Shown: piece after piece, positions 1,776 through 32,968 of the stretch
How the letters are laid out: each line of letters starts with the position of its first letter
Position numbering within the stretch: the stretch's first letter is position 1
Origin: a virus
Taxonomy: Duplodnaviria > Caudoviricetes
IMG/VR virus record: IMGVR_UViG_3300027690_000133
Coordinates: 1 to 33,212 of that record
Direction: 5' to 3' (one strand)
Length of the DNA: 33,212 nt
Position numbers and translations under genes: made by a program
The notes under the pieces: generated by a model
Seen by the model: only the letters and a program-made list of their open reading frames with translations
What the model was told of the DNA's origin: nothing
The model's database searches: none

Positions 1776-1943
1776 ATGACCATCGAAGACCGGAAATTAA
1801 TTGACAATGAATTCCATAATGCTACTATTAATGAGCTCGAGTTTGACAAAGATCTGATTGTTCCTCAGTTACTAGAATTCGCAGCCGTCTATGAGAAACG
1901 AATCAAAATCATAGAGGAGCGCCAAAAATGCAATCTTCATTAG
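1776..1943 (+). CDS. Small hypothetical protein overlapping the integrase start
   Basis: AGGAGG SD before ATG 1776; overlaps the recombinase 5' end. Confidence 0.65.
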   Translation: MTIEDRKLIDNEFHNATINELEFDKDLIVPQLLEFAAVYEKRIKIIEERQKCNLH

Positions 1944-3532
1944 AAATCCAGATCGCCGAAAAGATTGAAACTGCCCGCAATCATAAGACAAAGAACCTTG
2001 CCTTCGCCTATGCTCGTATCTCATCCAAGAAGCAGGAAGATGGAAATAGTAAAGCAGCCCAGATCAAAGGAATAAATACGTATGCCCAGCGTAACAACCT
2101 GTATATAATTCACCTGTTTGCAACCACTGAGTCGGCCTGGTCTCCAGGGCGAATTGATTTCAATCTAATGATCCGCCTTGCAAAAAAGCACAACATTAAA
2201 CATCTTATTTTTAAAAACCATGACCGTATATCCCGTAATGATGAGGATTGGCTTACAGTTGACAAAATGATAAAGCAGGAAGTCCAGTTCCACCTGTATG
2301 AGTTCAACAAGATTCTCGACAGCACCCGATCAGCGGAAGAGAAATTCGGTGACAAGGTTACATCAGGACTCAATGAGTATTGGTCCGATAAAATCTCTCA
2401 AGGTGTTCGCCGGGGTTACAATGAAAAGGCATTTGACAGGCGTGTGGCCCACAAGGCCCCTCTCGGTTATGAGTGGGAAGCTTCCCTTAAGAACTGGATA
2501 ATCGATCCTGAAAAGATGGCCGTTGTAAAATATATGTTTGAGCTTTATGATTCATCAGGCAACACCCTTCAGGAAATAGCTGATCTCTTGAATGCTCATG
2601 GATATACCACTGTAAGGGATGCTGAGTTTACCAAGTCACGAGTTCATCAAATACTTCACAATAGATTCTACACAGGATGGTTTCAGTATAAAAATGAATG
2701 GATAAAAGGGACTCATGAGCCGGTCATCTCTGATGATCTGTTCCAAGAGCGCATCTCACGGATGGATGATAGATATAACGGAAACCGAAAATCAGAAACA
2801 ACATACAATCTGTCTAAATACGTCCGGTGTTCCCATTGCGGAATGATGTATACAGGCTACAAGGTTATTAAGTCTGATGTGTATTACAATCATCATTGTG
2901 AAGCATTGAATGGAAAATATAGGATAGTTAAAGAATCTGAGATAGTAACTGCCCTTGATGATTATATTGAGACTATTGTGTACAGCGACCAGTATTCAAT
3001 GTGGTTAAAGAAAACATTCAGCGAAATCATGAATGATAAGTCATCTGTAACTGAACGCGAGAGAGCAGAAAGTAACAAGAAGATCAGAGAGCTTCAGTCA
3101 TCAAAATCCAAACTGCTCGACATGTATCTCTCTGATGAATTCACCAAAGAAGAAATTGATAAGAAGGCTCATGAGATTAATACGCAGATTACAGTCCTTG
3201 AAGATCGCCTCGTCATCCTTAATAAGGATTTATCCAATCATTTTAATAAGGTGCTCGATATAGTGGATTATCTGAAGAACTTCACAAAGACCTTTCTTCT
3301 TGATTCTATTGATGGAAAGATGGAATTCCTGCGGGCAATGTCCTATGTCATGATATATGATGATGACAATAAAAAAGTGGCCGAAATCCAGTGGAAAAAG
3401 GCTTTCGCCTACCTGCTTGCCAGGGATTTCACCACTCAGATTCCGCCCACTTCTCTTGATTTGGTAAGTCCTTTTACGTACGCATGGAGGGATGATTTCC
3501 GAACTAATCTTGAACGGTGGATGTGTGCTTAA
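1928..3532 (+). CDS. Large serine recombinase (phage integrase)
   Basis: YARISS..Q catalytic motif, DRISRN, recombinase domain (PLGY...GTHEPVIS), zinc ribbon CSHCG...YYNHHC, C-terminal coiled coil; 534 aa. Confidence 0.95.
   Translation: MQSSLEIQIAEKIETARNHKTKNLAFAYARISSKKQEDGNSKAAQIKGINTYAQRNNLYIIHLFATTESAWSPGRIDFNLMIRLAKKHNIKHLIFKNHDRISRNDEDWLTVDKMIKQEVQFHLYEFNKILDSTRSAEEKFGDKVTSGLNEYWSDKISQGVRRGYNEKAFDRRVAHKAPLGYEWEASLKNWIIDPEKMAVVKYMFELYDSSGNTLQEIADLLNAHGYTTVRDAEFTKSRVHQILHNRFYTGWFQYKNEWIKGTHEPVISDDLFQERISRMDDRYNGNRKSETTYNLSKYVRCSHCGMMYTGYKVIKSDVYYNHHCEALNGKYRIVKESEIVTALDDYIETIVYSDQYSMWLKKTFSEIMNDKSSVTERERAESNKKIRELQSSKSKLLDMYLSDEFTKEEIDKKAHEINTQITVLEDRLVILNKDLSNHFNKVLDIVDYLKNFTKTFLLDSIDGKMEFLRAMSYVMIYDDDNKKVAEIQWKKAFAYLLARDFTTQIPPTSLDLVSPFTYAWRDDFRTNLERWMCA
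3478..3493 (-). other. Candidate att core: tRNA-Arg-like 3' fragment (AT CCCTC CATGCGT A C)
   Basis: Reads as end of T-loop + T-stem 3' strand + acceptor 3' strand + discriminator; lies inside the integrase C-terminus (YAWRD). Confidence 0.5.
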
Positions 3533-22871: not shown

Positions 22872-23489
22872 TTATTCTTGTAAAATAATCCCTTGACTTG
22901 ACGCCATCCTGCGAGCTGCGACCATTTCCGGTCCTCGATTGTTTTTCTTGGCGTTATCAAAGAATGTTTGAAGGTCGCCCTTCTCTACGGGTCCGCCCGT
23001 TTCGGGTGCTTTCCCGGCAAGTCTTTTATTGACTTCCGCCTCAATTCCTTTGTTAATCTCAGCGGACATAAATTCTTTCAGTTTCTTGACATCGGCCTTT
23101 ATGCTTTCCTCGTCATCGCCTATGATGCGCTTTGCAAATTCTTGTGACAGTCCCGCATCATACAGCGCTTTATCAACATTTCGGCCCCTGACAATTTCAC
23201 GGGCTTCATGTTCGATACGATCTTTTTCCGCGCGGGCTTCATCGAGCTCCGCCTGGATGCGTTCTTTTTCGGAAAGTTTTTCTAGGTCTTTTTTTCTCAG
23301 CTCTTTTTCAAGCTCTGAGTTTCTGCGGTTCAAGCCGGATATTTCGGTCTTGAATTTCTCTTTGACGTCTTCAATGGCTTTAGAGACAAGCTCCTCGACA
23401 TTGATTTCTTTTGACGGTTCCTGCTGGATAGCCTGATCCGTGGGAGTAGAATCCTGATTTACATCCTGATTCTCGTTAATTGCTGTCAT
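22872..23489 (-). CDS. Capsid scaffolding protein (DUF4355-like)
   Basis: Acidic coiled coil, EVNKRLAGKAP; GAGGTG SD before ATG 23489. Confidence 0.85.
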   Translation of the reverse strand: MTAINENQDVNQDSTPTDQAIQQEPSKEINVEELVSKAIEDVKEKFKTEISGLNRRNSELEKELRKKDLEKLSEKERIQAELDEARAEKDRIEHEAREIVRGRNVDKALYDAGLSQEFAKRIIGDDEESIKADVKKLKEFMSAEINKGIEAEVNKRLAGKAPETGGPVEKGDLQTFFDNAKKNNRGPEMVAARRMASSQGIILQE

Positions 23490-23563
23490 TATGTCACCTC
23501 GGTTTAATTTTGTCAAGTACTATTTGACTATTTTATAAATTTTTTAAATACTCTAATATTTTT

Positions 23564-26432: not shown

Positions 26433-27640
26433 TAGTACCTCACTACTGTAGCATACTGGTTTAACTTTTTCATTTCATTAGTGTGCATTACATATCGTTC
26501 ACTATCCATTGAGTCGTCTTTCTCTTTTATTGGCTCTTCTTTCATTGAGTCTTTCCATCTGTAATAAAAAATTTCTGAAAGGTGATTAGCGTTATGTTCT
26601 TTTACGATGGCGACGTTATTATTTTTATACTGAGTTCCTACCGTGGTTAGTCCCTCAAATACCGCATTTTCGGCCCGCTCAATATTAAGTTGGGCGTTTT
26701 CCCACATCTCTATTAAATCGGCCCTGGATGGGTCAGCATAAAAAACTATACCTTTATGTTTTGACTGTATTTTTAGCGCTTCCTCAATCCACCAATCAGG
26801 TGCTTTATGCCGTTCAACTATTTCATACAGCCTGTAATATTTACCGTCTAATATTCCATAAACCCCGATAACTCCCGGATGATTATAACCCCAGTCAACC
26901 CCGGCGATATATTCTTTAAAATCTTTTGGCGCTTTGTCTTTAGGTATTACATGCAGATCGTAATTAAAATCTCGGTGAATCATGCCTTCCGCTGCGACCC
27001 ACTGACCGAGGATGTCACGGTCAAACCACATGCCTGATGGAATTGATTTTTTTAAGTTCTCTTTGTAGTCCCCTGAAAGAGTGGTATTGTCATCAAGGAT
27101 AAAGTGCCATGATTTAACCCGTATTCTCCCGTTGCTCATCACCTCATCTGATTTATCAATGTAATCAATTTTAATAGGGTGTTGCGGATGGTCGGGATTT
27201 GTGTCAAAAAACATTCTGAAGCCTTCGCCCGAACATCTCTTGACTGCCTGATCCACGCTGTTCATGTGCGAGAGTGTAATCTCGTTTGCATACCAACCGT
27301 ACGCGGTAATACCCCTCATTCTCTTGTACGAATCAACCTTGTCGGTCCCATAACAATGGATAGTGTTTCCAAAGAGCTTGAAAGTGTTATTCTTGTCCAG
27401 CGATGTATCAACGTTAAACATCACCGATATATCATCTAAAACGTTTGATTTCAAAGACGGTATTGTATAACCCGTCATTATGAACTTCACGCCCCGACCT
27501 TTAAATTCCTTGACGTGCATCATCCATAAAAAGTTATTAACGTATGTTTTTCCCGACCTGACCGCGCCTTCGAGAATGGTAATGATTGGCCGGTGCTTAT
27601 TGTCGTATTGTATTATGTCTCTTTGTTTGCCAGAAAACAT
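26432..27640 (-). CDS. terL: Terminase large subunit (PBSX family)
   Basis: GAVRSGKT Walker A, DTNP, DWGYNHP and D.MD..RY nuclease motifs. Confidence 0.95.
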   Translation of the reverse strand: MFSGKQRDIIQYDNKHRPIITILEGAVRSGKTYVNNFLWMMHVKEFKGRGVKFIMTGYTIPSLKSNVLDDISVMFNVDTSLDKNNTFKLFGNTIHCYGTDKVDSYKRMRGITAYGWYANEITLSHMNSVDQAVKRCSGEGFRMFFDTNPDHPQHPIKIDYIDKSDEVMSNGRIRVKSWHFILDDNTTLSGDYKENLKKSIPSGMWFDRDILGQWVAAEGMIHRDFNYDLHVIPKDKAPKDFKEYIAGVDWGYNHPGVIGVYGILDGKYYRLYEIVERHKAPDWWIEEALKIQSKHKGIVFYADPSRADLIEMWENAQLNIERAENAVFEGLTTVGTQYKNNNVAIVKEHNANHLSEIFYYRWKDSMKEEPIKEKDDSMDSERYVMHTNEMKKLNQYATVVRY

Positions 27641-28128
27641 TATAGTTTTCGGAGTCCATCAAGTAACTCGTCAAGCTTGGTAATGGTTATGTCTTTTTTC
27701 TCAGTGAATCCAACCACATATTTCGATAGGGCATCCAGTGCCGATATTTTGTTATGCAGCTTGTATTCAATGGTTGAATTGTCTTTGCCGTGCTTTATTT
27801 TGACAGCCTCTAAAACTGTTGTATCGGTTTCATTTGTTGCGGTGGGTTCTCCCGTGACCGGGTCCACAAATTTGGATATGTCGGAAAAGGCAATTTTCTT
27901 GTACTCGTTTACAACCTGGAGCGCGAGGGCTTCTTTGTCGTCAAGTATGGCGTTTATTTGCTTGTTGATTTCGGCTTTTATCTCAGCATTTCTAAGCAAT
28001 CTATGACCATTTGACATTGCCGTATCATAATCACAATCATAGACCGCCTGATATGCTTTTGTAGCATTGCAGTTATTAGCCACATATTCAGCTATAAATA
28101 GTTTGTGTTTGTCGCTTAATTCTGCCAT
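27640..28128 (-). CDS. terS: Terminase small subunit
   Basis: L..K.KLF..EY....NATKAY......A..NG.RLLRN..I HTH; KLH.K..AL..L. Confidence 0.92.
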   Translation of the reverse strand: MAELSDKHKLFIAEYVANNCNATKAYQAVYDCDYDTAMSNGHRLLRNAEIKAEINKQINAILDDKEALALQVVNEYKKIAFSDISKFVDPVTGEPTATNETDTTVLEAVKIKHGKDNSTIEYKLHNKISALDALSKYVVGFTEKKDITITKLDELLDGLRKL

Positions 28129-28456
28129 TTTATTAAATTCTATAATTCATTTTTATTATTTTATAATTTACTTAAATACTTTATAAAGAATAGCGGCTAT
28201 AATAAATGTTATCTCATACCTTAAAAGTGCTTCAGGACCGGAATCATCCTTTTGAATCGAATACCAGGTTGTTATTACAAACCATATAAGGTAATATAGT
28301 ATGATGTCGGTCATGTTAATCTATTCTCACGCCATTGGCTCTCAGTATATCGCAGTAATCACCAAAGGTTATGTTTTTATTTATATTTTTGCATACTTTG
28401 TGTAAAAACCAATCAGTATATACATCGTGAAGTTCTTTTATAATACCGGTCATAGT

Positions 28457-28774
28457 TTATTTATTATCAATAATATATCTGCCGTGCCATTTCTTCCAGT
28501 ATTTGACACGTGAACCCTTGTTTATGTTTACATATTGAGATTTGTTAATCGGTATGGATACCGCTTCCCCGTTTTCATTAACCAGTATAGAGGCACTTTC
28601 GGGTATAATTATTGTACCCATGGAGGACTTTCCGTCGGCTGAAACACTGTTACCAATACCAACACTCGAAGGAGTATAGTATTTTTCTATAACCACAGAA
28701 TCCATGATTTCAGGATCGGAACACCCGGAGAATGAAATCAAAATCGATATAATAAATGTGTTTATATATTTCAT
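28457..28774 (-). CDS. Putative lipoprotein
   Basis: Signal peptide with FSG-C lipobox. Confidence 0.65.
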   Translation of the reverse strand: MKYINTFIISILISFSGCSDPEIMDSVVIEKYYTPSSVGIGNSVSADGKSSMGTIIIPESASILVNENGEAVSIPINKSQYVNINKGSRVKYWKKWHGRYIIDNK

Positions 28775-29064
28775 AGTTTACCCATGTCAATTCTAAATAG
28801 AGCACATAGAACAGCAAGTTTTAAGTTTATTACAACAAGGTCTAATTCGTAAATTTGATATAATGCGCTATTTTCTACGCCAGGACACAAACAAACACTT
28901 TTATTTAACTGATCCATTATATCAGCCATTTGATGAATATAAAAATTGCATTGATTACGGGCTATTTTTTTTATACGGTTCATAGCCTCCCCACTATCTT
29001 GACAAAATAATATCAGACGCCTTCCGTAAGCATGATTGACATATTTTTGCCGTACGTGATTCAT
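28771..29064 (-). CDS. Hypothetical protein (probable start MNRIKK)
   Basis: Co-oriented; GGGAGG SD before the internal Met. Confidence 0.5.
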   Translation of the reverse strand: MNHVRQKYVNHAYGRRLILFCQDSGEAMNRIKKIARNQCNFYIHQMADIMDQLNKSVCLCPGVENSALYQIYELDLVVINLKLAVLCALFRIDMGKL

Positions 29065-29365
29065 AGTCTGGTTCTTGGCCGATCTGGATTAAAATTTCCC
29101 AATCCTCGCCACACTCATCACAGTAGTTTTCGGTCCATGATTTATTGCCTATAATATCAATTATCTCCGCTTCTGTCGGTTGGTCTAATTTCAGCAGTTT
29201 TTCGTATATTTCCAATTTATCGCCGCCAGGGGTCATATATCTTTTGTATTGCTTATACCATGACTTGGTAATATTATCTATTTTGTGTTGTTTGGTTATT
29301 ATTTTCATAACACCCCCACTATCTTTACAGCTACTATCAGGACTATTACAGAGGACAGAGTCCAA
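28994..29365 (-). CDS. Zinc-finger phage protein (probable start MKIITK)
   Basis: CDEC ... CQSC pairs. Confidence 0.7.
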   Translation of the reverse strand: MDSVLCNSPDSSCKDSGGVMKIITKQHKIDNITKSWYKQYKRYMTPGGDKLEIYEKLLKLDQPTEAEIIDIIGNKSWTENYCDECGEDWEILIQIGQEPDYESRTAKICQSCLRKASDIILSR

Positions 29366-29409
29366 AAGAGTATTGACAGTATGCGGTTTATGAGTTCTTC
29401 AAAGTCCAT

Positions 29410-29631
29410 CTATACAGCCTTATCATAACCTATTGTCGTAGAATCACCGCTTAGAGTTACGGGATAATAGGTATACGGCCACTCCCATCTCCACGGATAA
29501 ATAACCCACGGGGAAACCGGGGATTCGTATATCTCTTTTAGTTGGTTATATAGAGCCCTGGCTTCAGTATTCGACAGGGTGACCTCTTTACCCTTGCCTA
29601 TTTTTATTTTAACGTTAATTTGTACTTCCAT
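29410..29631 (-). CDS. Hypothetical phage protein
   Basis: EAR.LY.QLKEIY...PW pattern; co-oriented. Confidence 0.65.
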   Translation of the reverse strand: MEVQINVKIKIGKGKEVTLSNTEARALYNQLKEIYESPVSPWVIYPWRWEWPYTYYPVTLSGDSTTIGYDKAV

Positions 29632-29649
29632 TTATTACATCCCTATTTG

Positions 29650-29816
29650 TCACGCCGCAATTAAAGCCCTTTTCTCTAGTCGCCTTTTCCTTTTGGCGGC
29701 TCGCCTGGCTTTATTTTTTATCCATCTTTTTTCAAGTGTATATCTCATTTGTGCCGGTTTTTTTTCTTCCGGCCGTACTTTCTTGTCTTTCTCCCTGTTT
29801 TTGTTTTTGTAGCCAT
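29650..29816 (-). CDS. Highly basic peptide, split by an A8 run (23 aa in frame 0; 55 aa ending -ALIAA with a -1 shift)
   Basis: GAGGT SD; MATKTKTGRKTRKYGRKKKNRHK* in frame 0; -1 frame continues PAQMRYTLEKRWIKNKARRAAKRKRRLEKRALIAA*. Confidence 0.65.
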
Positions 29817-29832
29817 ACTTTACCTCATCATG

Positions 29833-29910
29833 TGGACGCTATCGGAATCGAACCGATGTCTTACAGGTTCCTGTCGGTCTTACTTGTAAGCGAAGCCATT
29901 TACAGCGCCC
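29833..29910 (-). ncRNA. Mini-tmRNA-like RNA (tRNA-like domain only)
   Basis: GGGCGCU/AGCGUCC acceptor with G3:U70 and A73; stemless D-loop GUAAAUGGCUUCG; 9-bp P2 (1 mismatch); GAC linker; T-arm AUCGG-UUCGAUU-CCGAU. Confidence 0.75.
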
Positions 29911-29913
29911 CAA

Positions 29914-29986
29914 TGGTCATGTGTTGGAATCGAACCAACAAAATACCCCAAAAGGGGTTAGCGTCAGCCAATTGCGCCTCCATGAC
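29914..29986 (-). ncRNA. tRNA-like RNA lacking an anticodon loop
   Basis: Acceptor GUCAUG/CAUGAC, D-arm GGCG/CGCU with GG, ACCCC-UUUU-GGGGU arm, 6-bp T-arm with UUCGAUU. Confidence 0.75.
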
Positions 29987-29992
29987 ATTTTT

Positions 29993-30030
29993 TCCCTTCC
30001 CATCCCCGGCGTTGCACCGGGGCGGGAGGA
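29993..30030 (-). ncRNA. T-loop-capped long hairpin (minihelix-like)
   Basis: UCCUCCC-G-CCCCGG-UGCAACG-CCGGGG-AU-GGGAAGGGA. Confidence 0.5.
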
Positions 30031-30034
30031 AAAT

Positions 30035-30116
30035 ACCTTCCAAATTTCGCAGGCTAAAGGAACGCGTCCCGTCAACCATTTATCCAGGCATGGAGCCGAT
30101 CAAAGGCGTGGAAGGT
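30035..30116 (-). ncRNA. Unassigned 82-nt structured RNA at the 5' end of the transcript
   Basis: Closing stem ACCUUCCA/UGGAAGGU, nested CGC/GCG and GGCU/AGCC, hairpins CCAU/AUGG and GGGA/UUCC. Confidence 0.55.
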
Positions 30117-30127
30117 TCACTATTACA

Positions 30128-30156
30128 AGTATAATATATTATGTCCCATTTGTCAA
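30128..30156 (-). promoter_or_regulatory. Near-consensus sigma70 promoter TTGACA-N17-TATACT driving the ncRNA cluster
   Basis: -35 at 30151-30156, -10 at 30128-30133, AT-rich UP element; predicted TSS near 30121. Confidence 0.85.
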
Positions 30157-30244
30157 GTTATTTTTGATTATTTTATAAAATTATTAAATAATCTAAGTTA
30201 ATACGCAATGCGGATATTATTTGTTGTACGAAATGGCGCAAAAC

Positions 30245-30445
30245 TTATTGTAGCCTTTCCGCTTTTGTTAAATCAATATTTTGCATTATTCTTCCGATGT
30301 AACATCCCCCCATTTTAGGCTTTTTTAGTCTCCAACCGGCGGAACATTTATCCTCATCAGAACCGTTATGGCCTCTTTCACACTCGGTACAATCAACATA
30401 AAGTTTCCCCTTGTTATCATAAAAACTTGCTACTTTTTTCATCAC
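30245..30445 (-). CDS. Cys-rich cassette protein
   Basis: C.EC.RG.NG...CSAGW....GC; AGGAG SD; flanked by 22-bp inverted repeats. Confidence 0.75.
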   Translation of the reverse strand: MMKKVASFYDNKGKLYVDCTECERGHNGSDEDKCSAGWRLKKPKMGGCYIGRIMQNIDLTKAERLQ

Positions 30446-30484
30446 GTTCTCCTTTAAATTTTATTCTGTAATTTGCGCCACTTC

Positions 30485-30538
30485 GTACAACAACGGGCAA
30501 GCGACATTAAAACGATCGCCTGCCCTGTTTAGTTAGGC
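30485..30538 (+). repeat. attC-like site 1
   Basis: GTACAAC ... GGGCAAGCGA/TCGCCTGCCC hairpin ... GTTAGGC. Confidence 0.7.
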
Positions 30539-30733
30539 GACATTGTTTTTAAAAAATAGTCTTTCTAAGTCATTGCAACTTTCTCCATTTCTGTAAAAAT
30601 AAACACACCTTACACACACATGCAATTTATTATAATTCACACACTCTTCATGGTTAACTTCATGTGAAACAACGTCGCCTAACAGCGGGTATCCAAAACC
30701 GCTGTTACCCTTCGCATTACCTTTTTCTGTCAT
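30533..30733 (-). CDS. Cys-rich cassette protein starting inside attC-like site 2
   Basis: GGAGG SD; stop codon is the TTA of the GTTAGGC core. Confidence 0.6.
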   Translation of the reverse strand: MTEKGNAKGNSGFGYPLLGDVVSHEVNHEECVNYNKLHVCVRCVYFYRNGESCNDLERLFFKNNVA

Positions 30734-30799
30734 GATGCTTTTCCTCCGTTTTAAATTATTTCCGTCAATCGGCTTCGGATCACCCGCTATATGTTAGGC
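30677..30799 (+). repeat. attC-like site 2
   Basis: GCCTAAC AGCGGGTATCCAAAACCG ... CGGCTTCGGATCACCCGCT ATAT GTTAGGC, with one extrahelical base. Confidence 0.7.
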
Positions 30800-30839
30800 G
30801 AAAATAACCGCCCTTTTCTATCACCAATTTTTAGTTAAT

Positions 30840-31019
30840 TTATTCCTTATCTCTTGAACTTCCTTTTAAATCCGCGAACACGGCATCATGCGCCATTGAT
30901 TCCCTGTTTTGCAATTTATCTTCCAGCCAACGGATATATTTGACATTGAATATATCTATACCTGGACTTAGTTCGCTACTATCGGTTTCTCTCTTGAATC
31001 GATCTCTTAATGATGACAT
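30840..31019 (-). CDS. Hypothetical protein, 59 aa (MSSLRDRFKRET...YIRWLE)
   Basis: Translated by hand; GGAGGGAG SD. Confidence 0.6.
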   Translation of the reverse strand: MSSLRDRFKRETDSSELSPGIDIFNVKYIRWLEDKLQNRESMAHDAVFADLKGSSRDKE

Positions 31020-31382
31020 TCACTCCCTCCTTAAATTCAACGGCGCATATTCCGGGGCTTAATTTATTGTCACGTTTTCCCGTGTGTCCAAAATCAATAA
31101 TATAGTATTTTTAATCTCTGAATCGTCGATAAAATATTCCTGGTGCATTGGTCCGTGGCATTCGTCAATGATACGGAATATCAGGGAGCGGAGATCGTCA
31201 AAGGTTATGTATATTATTCTATCCCCGCCTTTCATACATCCGCCCCAGGATAAAAAACATTGCAGAGAATAACGTCAGTACAGATACGATGAAAAGAATT
31301 TGACAGGTGTAATCGAGTGCTGAATATTGCACGGCCTCATAATATCGGTCAACCGCCGAAACCAGAATCGCCTCGTGATAAT

Positions 31383-31751
31383 TCATCCCTTGATTACCTC
31401 CATCAATTTATCATACTGCTCTTTGTCCCACTCTTTGCGGGTGATTCCGTTATCGACTAAATATTGTTTAATGGGTATATTTTCAAGTTCGCATAATCTG
31501 GCGTATAACTCTTCCCCGATGTGCTTTTCTATAAACTTCTCGCCCTGCTTAGTGTGAAAAAATTTATGACACACCATGCAACCGGGTATTCCGTTCAAGG
31601 GATCGTGTCTCGTTAAAGAGTGACGCCTCTTGATTATGTGGTGACATTCGACGTTCGCAAATCGTGCATCGGCTCCACAATAAGCACAACGGTTACCGTT
31701 AAGGATTAAAACGGCCTTTCGCCAAAGTTGCTGCAAATATCCGTCCGTCAC
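31383..31751 (-). CDS. NinG/Rap-like HNH endonuclease
   Basis: LW......RCAYCG....ECHHII.R....TRHD..NG...C..CH. Confidence 0.8.
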   Translation of the reverse strand: MTDGYLQQLWRKAVLILNGNRCAYCGADARFANVECHHIIKRRHSLTRHDPLNGIPGCMVCHKFFHTKQGEKFIEKHIGEELYARLCELENIPIKQYLVDNGITRKEWDKEQYDKLMEVIKG

Positions 31752-31918
31752 GCCCCGAACCTCTCATTATAATTTCTTAACAGCGACCAATAGCAACTCA
31801 ATGATTTATTAAACATGTCTTCTCGTATCCGCTCCCGTGCCTCGGCTAAATCCGGACGGTCTTTTGTTTCCTTACAGCGGATGTCAAACATGGCTTGTAT
31901 TTTTTCTTTGTCCGTCAT

Positions 31919-32173
31919 TTAATCACCAATCATAAAACCGATTGAAAAGAATCCCGCATAAAATTGGATTGTTTTTTTACCAATAAATCCAAACGTATAG
32001 GGTGTTACAATTTTCCAAAACAAATAATTAGTAAAACCAACCCTAAGTTTAAATGAGCCTATATTAAACCCGGCCCACCGGAGCCTGCGCTCACTCCTAG
32101 CTGGAGCCGTTTTGCATCCCCACTGGAAGATCGTAATTTTACTGTAATTTTCTTTTTCCATTTCATCCTCCAT
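31919..32173 (-). CDS. Hypothetical protein
   Basis: GGAGG SD; downstream of promoter 32180-32208. Confidence 0.55.
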   Translation of the reverse strand: MEDEMEKENYSKITIFQWGCKTAPARSERRLRWAGFNIGSFKLRVGFTNYLFWKIVTPYTFGFIGKKTIQFYAGFFSIGFMIGD

Positions 32174-32179
32174 ACATCA

Positions 32180-32208
32180 ACCTTACTGAATTATGTCTCT
32201 AAAGTCAA
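32180..32208 (-). promoter_or_regulatory. Promoter TTGACT-N17-TAAGGT
   Basis: Same architecture and upstream motif as the 30128-30156 promoter. Confidence 0.55.
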
Positions 32209-32265
32209 ATTATTTTTGATTGTTTTAGTGTATTTTTTTGTTATCTAAGATTGTTTGATTATGGT

Positions 32266-32634
32266 CTATGTCAGCTTCTCCACGCGTTTAATAAACTCAT
32301 CCATCATGTAATTATAGTATTCCTCGGAGTCTTCTATGCCCCTGTCATTTCTTCGCCATGCTTTGAAAAGCTCTTCCCGTAGTATCTGGCTTTTACTTCG
32401 CTTGTCGATTTTTTTTATTGGCGGGAGGTCTATAATATCCTTTGTCTCAATCTGATGGACATTGAACGTAAACCATCCGAGTTGATTTAAGTAATTCATT
32501 AGGGTTGACACCGATTCCGGCTTTAGTCCTTCCTGTGTGTCAATCTGAAGTCGCACCGAACCGCCGGACATGGTGGTCATCTTTGTGATGTAGCCTGGTA
32601 CTTGAAATATTCTGTATTCTGTGTTATCCTTCAT
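32266..32634 (-). CDS. Conserved-looking phage nin-region hypothetical protein
   Basis: T...GSVRL..DTQE, GWF.F, KSQ.LR..LF..W, YY...M. Confidence 0.7.
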   Translation of the reverse strand: MKDNTEYRIFQVPGYITKMTTMSGGSVRLQIDTQEGLKPESVSTLMNYLNQLGWFTFNVHQIETKDIIDLPPIKKIDKRSKSQILREELFKAWRRNDRGIEDSEEYYNYMMDEFIKRVEKLT

Positions 32635-32644
32635 AACTCTTCTT

Positions 32645-32968
32645 TTATCCTATCTTTTTTTTTAATAATCTAATAAGTTCGTTTCCGCCTTTCTTACTCT
32701 TTTTATTGCAATCGAAAAAAAGATAAGGAAGTGTAACGAAATAATCTGTTTTAATCTTGGGAATATATTTTAAAACACATTCCCAAGAACAGAAATGTAA
32801 ATATTCTGGTTGATCTGAATTTTTAAAAATAGTCATTTCCAACCTTTCGGTTTCGTTTGGATATTCTTTAATTTCTTTTTTGCATTCATCACACCCATAT
32901 ACCCCTGGAGAAATACACCGTTTTTTCTCCACCATTACTTTTTTGTATTCTGCTTTTTTGATTATCAT
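32645..32968 (-). CDS. Zinc-binding hypothetical protein
   Basis: CDEC and HFCSWEC motifs; GGAGG SD. Confidence 0.7.
   Translation of the reverse strand: MIIKKAEYKKVMVEKKRCISPGVYGCDECKKEIKEYPNETERLEMTIFKNSDQPEYLHFCSWECVLKYIPKIKTDYFVTLPYLFFDCNKKSKKGGNELIRLLKKKIG

What the first reader, a model, noticed from the sequence alone, without database searches (positions are those of the whole stretch)
29833..29910. 78-nt tmRNA tRNA-like domain with the entire mRNA-like domain replaced by a 13-nt loop
Seen: 5'-GGGCGCU GUAAAUGGCUUCG CUUACAAGU AAGACCGACAGGA ACCUGUAAG AC AUCGG UUCGAUU CCGAU AGCGUCC A. It has the Ala identity elements (G3:U70, A73), a stemless D-loop with GG.UUCG and the short GAC linker, all tmRNA hallmarks rather than tRNA ones. 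CCA is not fully encoded. Known: tag-less tmRNAs occur in jakobid mitochondria, while the phage tmRNAs I know retain a tag frame. Inference: it may release stalled ribosomes without tagging phage proteins for decay, or sequester SmpB.
Basis: partly seen in the sequence, partly recalled or inferred. Interest (0 to 1): 0.85.

Follow-up and report, generated by a model that had tools for sequence, protein, structure and literature searches.

The report
Divergent phage tag-less mini-tmRNA gene
This prophage carries a 78-base gene copying only the tRNA-like end of the bacterial ribosome-rescue RNA (tmRNA), a kind already reported from mycobacteriophage DS6A and here found in many phages, which likely competes with the host's rescue-and-tagging system.

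Summary
The element is real: window 29833-29910, minus strand, in a provirus. It has a 7-bp acceptor stem with G3·U70 and A73, a stemless D-loop, helix P2a, the GAC connector and a T-arm, but no tag frame, pseudoknots or encoded CCA.

It is not unique. IMG/VR scans gave 118 distinct TLD-only RNAs with strong covariation. G3·U70 is kept in 91 of 93 from a scan that did not ask for it. A model built without the window scores it 56.7 bits, and the published 'TLD only' RNA of mycobacteriophage DS6A 59.0 bits.

The '13-nt loop' is the family's A-rich internal loop plus a mini-hairpin. This copy is divergent: Rfam tmRNA gives 19.9 bits and Rfam tRNA 20.5. A relative from a second study keeps it.

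Likely mechanism (untested): host-charged with alanine, it binds host SmpB and out-competes host tmRNA. The rival is tag-free alanine or poly-alanine addition.

This scan reported the same kind at least eight times on other DNA. Verdict: new member of a known kind.

The parts
29833..29910 (-). TLD-only (tag-less) tmRNA gene, 78 nt up to the discriminator A73
   Evidence: Sequence; family model R1 56.7 bits, E 3e-10; RF00023 19.9 bits, E 6.8e-7, below cut-off; missed by ARAGORN and by whole-window Rfam scan
29904..29910 (-). Acceptor stem 5' strand (G3 of the G3·U70 pair)
   Evidence: Pairs 7 of 7 with 29834-29840
29891..29903 (-). Stemless D-loop with the equivalents of E. coli U17, C18 and G19 (predicted SmpB contacts)
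   Evidence: Alignment to R1 and RF00023; contacts as described in PMC8363625
29860..29890 (-). Helix P2a (8 of 9 pairs) closed by an A-rich strand and a 2-bp hairpin with loop GACA, in place of the pseudoknots and tag frame; C instead of A at tmRNA position 20
   Evidence: family P2a pairs all covary; C20 in only 2 of 118 family sequences
29841..29860 (-). GAC connector and T-arm (5 bp, loop UUCGAUU)
29833..29840 (-). Acceptor 3' strand with U70 and discriminator A73; CCA not encoded beyond C74
30128..30156 (-). Sigma-70-type promoter (TTGACA-17-TATACT), predicted to drive the RNA cassette
   Evidence: Best site of 21 in 28000-31500, 11 of 12 matches; kept in the X2 relative; transcription not shown
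29991..30033 (-). Long G+C-rich hairpin upstream of the two tRNA-like genes, role unknown
   Evidence: -29.7 kcal/mol, z -4.8; 29997-30031 identical in the X2 relative
29915..29986 (-). Second tRNA-like RNA with a 4-6-nt loop in place of an anticodon loop, ending 4 nt before the mini-tmRNA
   Evidence: ARAGORN tRNA-???; RF00005 26.6 bits, below cut-off; replaced by other sequence in the X2 relative
29650..29816 (-). Two tiny overlapping Lys/Arg-rich ORFs (23 and 32 aa) starting 16 nt behind the RNA; the second ends ...LIAA-stop. Probably co-transcribed, not part of the RNA
   Evidence: no Pfam or PHROG match; in one frame in the X2 relative; no such ORF is conserved behind family members

Best explanation
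The gene is a phage tmRNA reduced to its tRNA-like domain, of the DS6A type, and its RNA is likely matured and charged with alanine by host enzymes, then likely binds host SmpB and competes with the host's own tmRNA, which would lower tagging and destruction of proteins on stalled ribosomes. Shown here: structure, alanine identity elements, family membership, covariation, no smpB found in carriers, retention in a relative. Inferred: transcription from the promoter at 30156-30128; 5' cut by RNase P; CCA addition; alanylation; SmpB and EF-Tu binding; entry into non-stop ribosomes, where it could accept the nascent chain but offers no resume codon, tag or stop codon.
For: (1) In a scan whose pattern left the acceptor free, 114 of 120 loci parse as TLD-only RNAs. 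Of 93 distinct sequences, 91 have G3·U70, 92 have A73 and 91 are 75-81 nt long. (2) On 91 aligned sequences 97.9% of cells pair and 16 of 20 pairs change on both sides. No shuffle of 500 reaches this, and slid controls give 37-54% (alignment fitted to the model). (3) The window scores 56.7 bits and DS6A 59.0 on a model built from neither; DS6A has the same A-rich strand and cap. (4) The residues described as SmpB contacts (U17, C18, G19, A334; PMC8363625 passages) are all kept. (5) No smpB in 46 carrier records (0 of 22 near-complete ones) or in this provirus, so any SmpB must be the host's. (6) PMC11915505 says the DS6A form inhibits endogenous tmRNA in E. coli. PMC4131195 says 'a similar molecule' does so, chargeable or not, perhaps by titrating SmpB. 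(7) A relative in a second study keeps promoter, hairpin and RNA (3 substitutions, P2a still 8 of 9 pairs) while the flanking RNA segments are replaced.
Against: There are no expression, charging or binding data for this RNA. It is among the weakest family members: 56.7 bits in a range of 54-86, and 19.9 bits on RF00023 where the minis in 44 of 46 carrier records score 43-81. It has C at position 20, where all 36 parsed host tmRNAs and 116 of 118 family RNAs have A. Its predicted lowest-energy fold disrupts the T-arm. Pure SmpB titration reportedly needs no charging, yet G3·U70 is conserved, which fits an active role in the ribosome at least as well. The inhibition result was seen only second-hand; Mao et al. 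2009 is not held, and the two citing papers word it differently. Two carrier records also hold a full-length tmRNA, which is odd for a pure inhibitor.
Confidence: 0.55

Rival explanations
1. Tag-free rescue or alanine tailing: Ala-RNA with host SmpB enters non-stop ribosomes, takes over the nascent chain and adds one or several non-templated alanines. The ribosome is then freed by drop-off or a backup release factor, which helps phage translation.
For: G3·U70 in 91 of 93, A73 in 92 of 93 and C74 in 113 of 118 point to selection for charging. A TLD fragment with SmpB makes polyalanine in vitro without mRNA (PMC3929946 passage citing Shimizu and Ueda 2006). Tag-less mitochondrial tmRNAs are thought to free stalled ribosomes (PMC3590771). 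Some members sit in tRNA arrays (15 of 66 loci have a tRNA within 1.5 kb).
Against: Without a stop codon the RNA cannot itself trigger release (argued for mt-tmRNA in PMC11915505). The only reported in vivo effect of this form is inhibition. C-terminal alanines may themselves be degradation signals (own knowledge).
Confidence: 0.25
2. This particular copy is a decaying member of the family that no longer binds SmpB well.
For: Low scores. Rare states at several positions: C15 (1 of 118), C20 (2 of 118), 6-nt D-loop prefix (3 of 118). Competing folds. An odd tRNA-like neighbour.
Against: All 7 acceptor and 5 T-stem pairs are intact, and C20 makes a Watson-Crick pair with the connector G. A relative keeps the RNA at 75 of 78 bases with no change in acceptor, D-loop or T-arm, while neighbouring segments are exchanged.
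Confidence: 0.1
3. A tRNA-derived alanine-accepting decoy (for example for anticodon nucleases or EF-Tu), not tied to SmpB.
For: RF00005 scores it 20.5 bits against 19.9 for RF00023. An alternative fold with a 4-bp D-like stem and a 4-bp hairpin can be drawn. The upstream gene is a tRNA-like RNA without a normal anticodon loop.
Against: That fold is less stable (-19.4 against -22.1), has no 7-nt anticodon loop and loses a pair in the relative. The family model gives 56.7 bits against at most 25.4 for tRNAs. The GG.UUCG and GAC motifs match host tmRNAs.
Confidence: 0.06
4. An assembly artefact or an attachment-site remnant of a host tmRNA gene.
For: tmRNA genes are common integration sites (PMC11915505 abstract), and the record is a provirus.
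Against: A contig of run X1 crosses it without a difference (this may be the source) and an independent contig of run X2 holds the same short form. The family has a tight length although the pattern allowed 25-55 nt in the middle. Both halves covary. The integrase is a large serine type at 1928-3532, about 26 kb away.
Confidence: 0.02
5. A split tmRNA: the downstream ORF ending ...LIAA-stop serves as the tag template in trans.
For: The ORF lies on the same predicted transcript and its end resembles SsrA tags.
Against: It has its own ribosome-binding site and ATG. None of the first downstream ORFs found for 65 other family loci ends in AA. No pairing to the RNA and no pseudoknots are apparent.
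Confidence: 0.02

Closest known systems
'TLD only' (CDS-less) tmRNA of mycobacteriophage DS6A (JN698994 28478-28557; tmRNA Website tmID 11587; Mao et al. 2009 as cited in PMC4131195 and PMC11915505)
   Same: About 80 nt, G3·U70, A73, CCA not encoded, P2a closed by an A-rich strand and a short hairpin, phage-borne, no smpB; 59.0 against 56.7 bits on the same model
   Different: Different sequence. DS6A departs in the D-loop and connector (GGUGGUCGAC, GCAC); this copy has C20, a U7-A66 pair, a longer D-loop and a 2-bp cap. Here it lies behind its own predicted promoter, in tandem with an anticodon-less tRNA-like gene.
Standard bacterial and phage tmRNA (Rfam RF00023)
   Same: TLD, alanine identity elements, SmpB-contact residues, P2a and the A-rich start of the P2a/P2b junction
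   Different: No pseudoknots, resume codon, tag frame or stop codon; 78 against 316-423 nt in 39 host tmRNAs; 19.9 bits against a cut-off of 47
Tag-less mitochondrial tmRNA of jakobids and oomycetes (RF02544) and ~65-nt CDS-less plastid tmRNAs (PMC11915505)
   Same: mRNA-like domain absent, alanine identity kept
   Different: No match to RF02544; mostly two-piece; they are the organelle's only tmRNA, whereas this RNA would coexist with a complete host tmRNA
Engineered TLD fragments used for SmpB structures and template-free polyalanine synthesis (PMC3929946)
   Same: Same architecture: both ends of tmRNA joined by a small loop
   Different: Laboratory constructs; the natural family keeps a conserved A-rich loop and cap at nearly fixed length

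Membership tests
DS6A-type TLD-only phage tmRNA | One-piece TLD of about 80 nt with G3·U70 and A73 | tested here: met
DS6A-type TLD-only phage tmRNA | P2a closed by an A-rich strand and short hairpin instead of pseudoknots and tag frame | tested here: met
   the cap has only 2 pairs here
DS6A-type TLD-only phage tmRNA | Scores with the family on a model that also recovers DS6A | tested here: met
   56.7 bits; DS6A 59.0; family 54-86; 3' ends of full host tmRNAs at most 39.3; tRNAs at most 25.4
DS6A-type TLD-only phage tmRNA | Phage-encoded | tested here: met
   Provirus record with terminase, portal, capsid and integrase
DS6A-type TLD-only phage tmRNA | Inhibits host trans-translation when expressed | not testable with these tools
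   Reported second-hand for DS6A or a similar molecule
Standard tmRNA (RF00023) | TLD with stemless D-loop, GAC connector, T-arm and alanine identity | tested here: met
   Full-length local alignment to RF00023, E 6.8e-7
Standard tmRNA (RF00023) | Internal tag reading frame and pseudoknots | tested here: not met
   13 nt between the P2a strands; ARAGORN finds no tmRNA
Standard tmRNA (RF00023) | Rfam gathering score of 47 bits | tested here: not met
   19.9 bits; no match in the whole-record search
Standard tmRNA (RF00023) | Alanylation, SmpB and EF-Tu binding | not testable with these tools
   Sequence determinants present; no experiment possible
Mitochondrial tmRNA (RF02544) | Match to the mt-tmRNA model | tested here: not met
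   No match at E up to 10
Canonical tRNA (RF00005) | Cloverleaf with D-stem and 7-nt anticodon loop | tested here: not met
   ARAGORN does not call it; 20.5 bits, below 29; best alternative fold has a 4-nt loop

The most novel reading that the evidence does not exclude
Hundreds of phages use an unannotated family of ~79-nt alanine-charged mini-tmRNAs with host SmpB to put non-templated alanine or poly-alanine tails on stalled chains. This would be a natural tag-free form of trans-translation that replaces the host's tag-and-destroy step during infection. Here it is co-transcribed with an anticodon-less tRNA-like RNA and a small basic protein as a translation-hijacking cassette.
Probability: 0.2. 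Interest if true: 0.75.

Novelty: new member of a known kind. Interest (0 to 1): 0.3.

Why it matters
The locus itself is one more, rather divergent, example of a form known from DS6A. The family matters more. It is common in phages, is unannotated in the six GenBank Streptomyces phage records found to carry it, and keeps the alanine identity pair. That makes an old question testable in cultured laboratory phages: what does a tmRNA without a tag do in a living cell? The answer bears on phage control of host protein quality control and on tag-less organelle tmRNAs. This copy also shows that divergent members escape both ARAGORN and the Rfam cut-offs.

Tried and rejected
- ARAGORN and a whole-window Rfam scan miss the RNA. 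blastn against GenBank phages found only T-arm-sized matches, and the three regions opened were not family members.
- The single scan of bacterial genomes used too loose a pattern. Of 120 loci most were 3' ends of ordinary tmRNAs or chance matches, and 1 was a mini form (L342, on a 1.6-kb contig). It gave a host control set but no estimate of frequency in prophages.
- A search for close relatives with the C20 variant gave 8 viral loci. Three were one family sequence already seen; the other five scored 19-33 bits on the model. Of 2 metagenome loci, one was identical to the window and one scored 26 bits and lies at a permuted tmRNA called by ARAGORN.
- The capsid protein found no related viral locus, and its homologues carry no host names, so the host is unknown.
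- No RNA holder was listed among sequencing runs. This is no evidence on expression.
- The 32-aa ORF has no Pfam or PHROG family, and Atlas hits are below 0.9. The search against cluster representatives was still queued at the end and gave no result. A recalled likeness of this peptide to the SmpB or ArfB tails was not supported by any search and was dropped.
- The 19-nt core of the upstream hairpin occurs in 11 unrelated viral loci without tRNA-like neighbours of this kind, so it is not specific to the cassette.
- No conserved neighbour gene or tag-like ORF was found for the family (a simple first-ORF rule, not a full annotation).
- One indel-bearing sequence (L158) was left out of the 118-sequence counts but is inside the 93. 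Lengths outside 72-83 nt and sequences over 90% identical were left out of the 89 aligned.

Full report
Observation. They form a 7-bp acceptor stem with G3·U70 and A73, a 13-nt stemless D-loop ending GGCUUCG, a 9-bp helix with one A·C mismatch, a 13-nt middle, the GAC connector and a 5-bp T-arm. Only C74 of the CCA end is encoded. A generic TLD-only pattern matches the window once and none of 300 shuffles. ARAGORN and a whole-window Rfam scan miss the element. A narrow scan aligns it end to end with the tmRNA model RF00023 at 19.9 bits, E 6.8e-7, best of its clan but far below the cut-off of 47. The tRNA model gives 20.5 bits and the mitochondrial tmRNA model nothing. The predicted lowest-energy fold is not the TLD fold (-24.9 against -22.1 kcal/mol). 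The energy model ignores tertiary contacts and protein, and only 73 of 118 family sequences show acceptor plus T-arm in their own lowest-energy fold.

Setting. The record is a provirus, 92% complete, with a large serine integrase, terminase, portal, capsid and tape measure. The host could not be named. On the minus strand a near-consensus sigma-70 promoter (11 of 12) is followed by a leader, a long hairpin (z -4.8) and a tRNA-like gene with a shrunken anticodon loop. The element starts 4 nt further on, and two tiny basic ORFs begin 16 nt after it. A contig from a second study (run X2, depth 5.9) keeps the promoter, the hairpin and the element with the ORFs, but has other sequence in place of the leader and the tRNA-like gene. 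Its three substitutions in the RNA fall in the cap loop and in P2a, where one closes the A·C mismatch and one opens another. P2a stays 8 of 9 paired, while both alternative folds lose a pair. This is one low-depth contig, so modest support.

Family. A second pattern that left the acceptor free gave 120 loci (about 400 estimated). Of these, 114 parse as TLD-only RNAs, 5 look like chance and 1 is cut by a contig end. Among 93 distinct sequences, 91 have G3·U70, 92 have A73 and 22 encode CCA. Together the viral scans give 118 distinct sequences. A covariance model from 27 of them, without the window, scores the window 56.7 bits (E 3e-10). Family members score 54-86, 3' ends of full-length host tmRNAs at most 39.3 and annotated tRNAs at most 25.4. 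On the 91-row fitted alignment 97.9% of cells pair and 16 of 20 pairs show changes on both sides, far above shuffled and slid controls. After P2a the family has an A-rich strand and usually a small hairpin (predicted in 105 of 118). The A-rich strand resembles the start of the P2a/P2b junction in many of 39 host tmRNAs (by inspection). The '13-nt loop' is therefore a short version of a conserved cap. Six GenBank records of Streptomyces phages carry the RNA, none annotated as such. No smpB was found in 46 carrier records or in this provirus. Two of the 46 also hold a full-length tmRNA, and RF00023 in local mode detects a match over its cut-off in 42 of 46. The window's copy is thus unusually divergent: C at tmRNA position 20 (2 of 118), C15 (1 of 118) and a 6-nt D-loop prefix (3 of 118).

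What is known. PMC4131195 (passages) lists mycobacteriophage DS6A as 'TLD only'. It says a similar molecule strongly inhibits tmRNA whether or not chargeable, perhaps by titrating SmpB. PMC11915505 (parts 1 and 3 of 5 and passages) says the DS6A form was shown to inhibit endogenous tmRNA in E. coli and reports CDS-less plastid forms. The primary paper (Mao et al. 2009) is not held. I located the DS6A RNA at 28478-28557; it has the family's cap and scores 59.0 bits on the model. PMC3929946 (passages) reports template-free polyalanine synthesis by SmpB with a TLD fragment. PMC8363625 and PMC3968760 (passages) give the SmpB contacts and alanine identity rules. PMC3590771 (passages) covers jakobid forms. 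Passages of PMC9004378, PMC10690425 and PMC5009743 did not mention TLD-only phage RNAs. Seven full-text searches found no paper describing the family's breadth. The library lacks most subscription journals, and I did not open the supplements of PMC11915505 or PMC10690425, which may list members. Earlier notes of this scan report the same kind on at least eight other genomes. I had reached this reading before seeing them, and they are not independent evidence.

Mechanism. Most likely (0.55) the RNA is cut from the predicted precursor like a tRNA, receives CCA and alanine from host enzymes, binds host SmpB and competes with host tmRNA, so that fewer stalled chains are tagged for ClpXP-type decay. 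Every step after the sequence is inferred. The conservation of G3·U70 is more than a pure SmpB sponge is reported to need, so competition probably includes the ribosomal A site. The main rival (0.25) is that this entry is the purpose: tag-free transfer to alanine, possibly repeated, followed by release through another route. Decay of this copy (0.10), a tRNA-type decoy (0.06), an artefact or attachment remnant (0.02) and a tag supplied in trans by the downstream ORF (0.02) are less likely, for the reasons listed.

Verdict. This is a new, divergent member of a known kind (DS6A-type TLD-only phage tmRNA); it is not a standard tmRNA, an mt-tmRNA or a tRNA. Interest 0.3 for the locus. The family-level question of what a tag-less tmRNA does in infection would deserve about 0.75 if alanine tailing proved true (probability about 0.2).

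Noticed in passing
window 29915-29986 (-): tRNA-like RNA with a class-II-like D-loop, a 4-6-nt loop instead of an anticodon loop, and C73. A pattern scan found 31 viral loci (18 distinct); 12 of the 18 have a full acceptor and T-stem around a similarly shortened middle, which suggests a separate family of anticodon-less tRNA-like RNAs in phages. None has a mini-tmRNA within 400 nt.
   Followed up: partly
window 29650-29816 (-): Two overlapping Lys/Arg-rich ORFs separated at an A8 run that contains an in-frame A-AAA-AAC heptamer (shift-prone motif recalled, not tested). In the X2 relative the run is one base longer and the two frames are continuous. The second ORF ends ...LIAA-stop, like an SsrA degron.
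   Followed up: partly
window 30036-30121 (-): Leader between promoter and hairpin can form a multi-branched fold closed by a long stem (z -1.5); the relative has a different 38-nt segment here.
   Followed up: no
window 23509-23556 and about 30149-30196 (-): The A+T-rich stretch ending in a TTGACA box is repeated (85% over 48 nt) upstream of the gene at 22872-23516, a possible shared phage promoter element.
   Followed up: partly
L058:189-265 (+); G037; G003; G006: Some carriers hold two mini-tmRNAs (L058's second has an aberrant T-loop; G037 has two), and two hold a mini plus a full-length tmRNA.
   Followed up: no
L254:1438-1527 (Microbacterium phage Armstrong): Unannotated 90-nt RNA with a G3·U70 acceptor and T-arm but no tmRNA D-loop motif, just before two tRNAs; 31.5 bits on the family model.
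   Followed up: no
window 30223-30531: In run X1 a second contig joins 30222 to 30532, skipping 309 bases that include the ORF 30245-30445: a variant or related copy of this region in the same sample.
   Followed up: no
L376: A 94,774-base metagenome contig is identical to window 26833-32897, so the provirus lies near the end of a longer contig whose remainder could identify the host.
   Followed up: no
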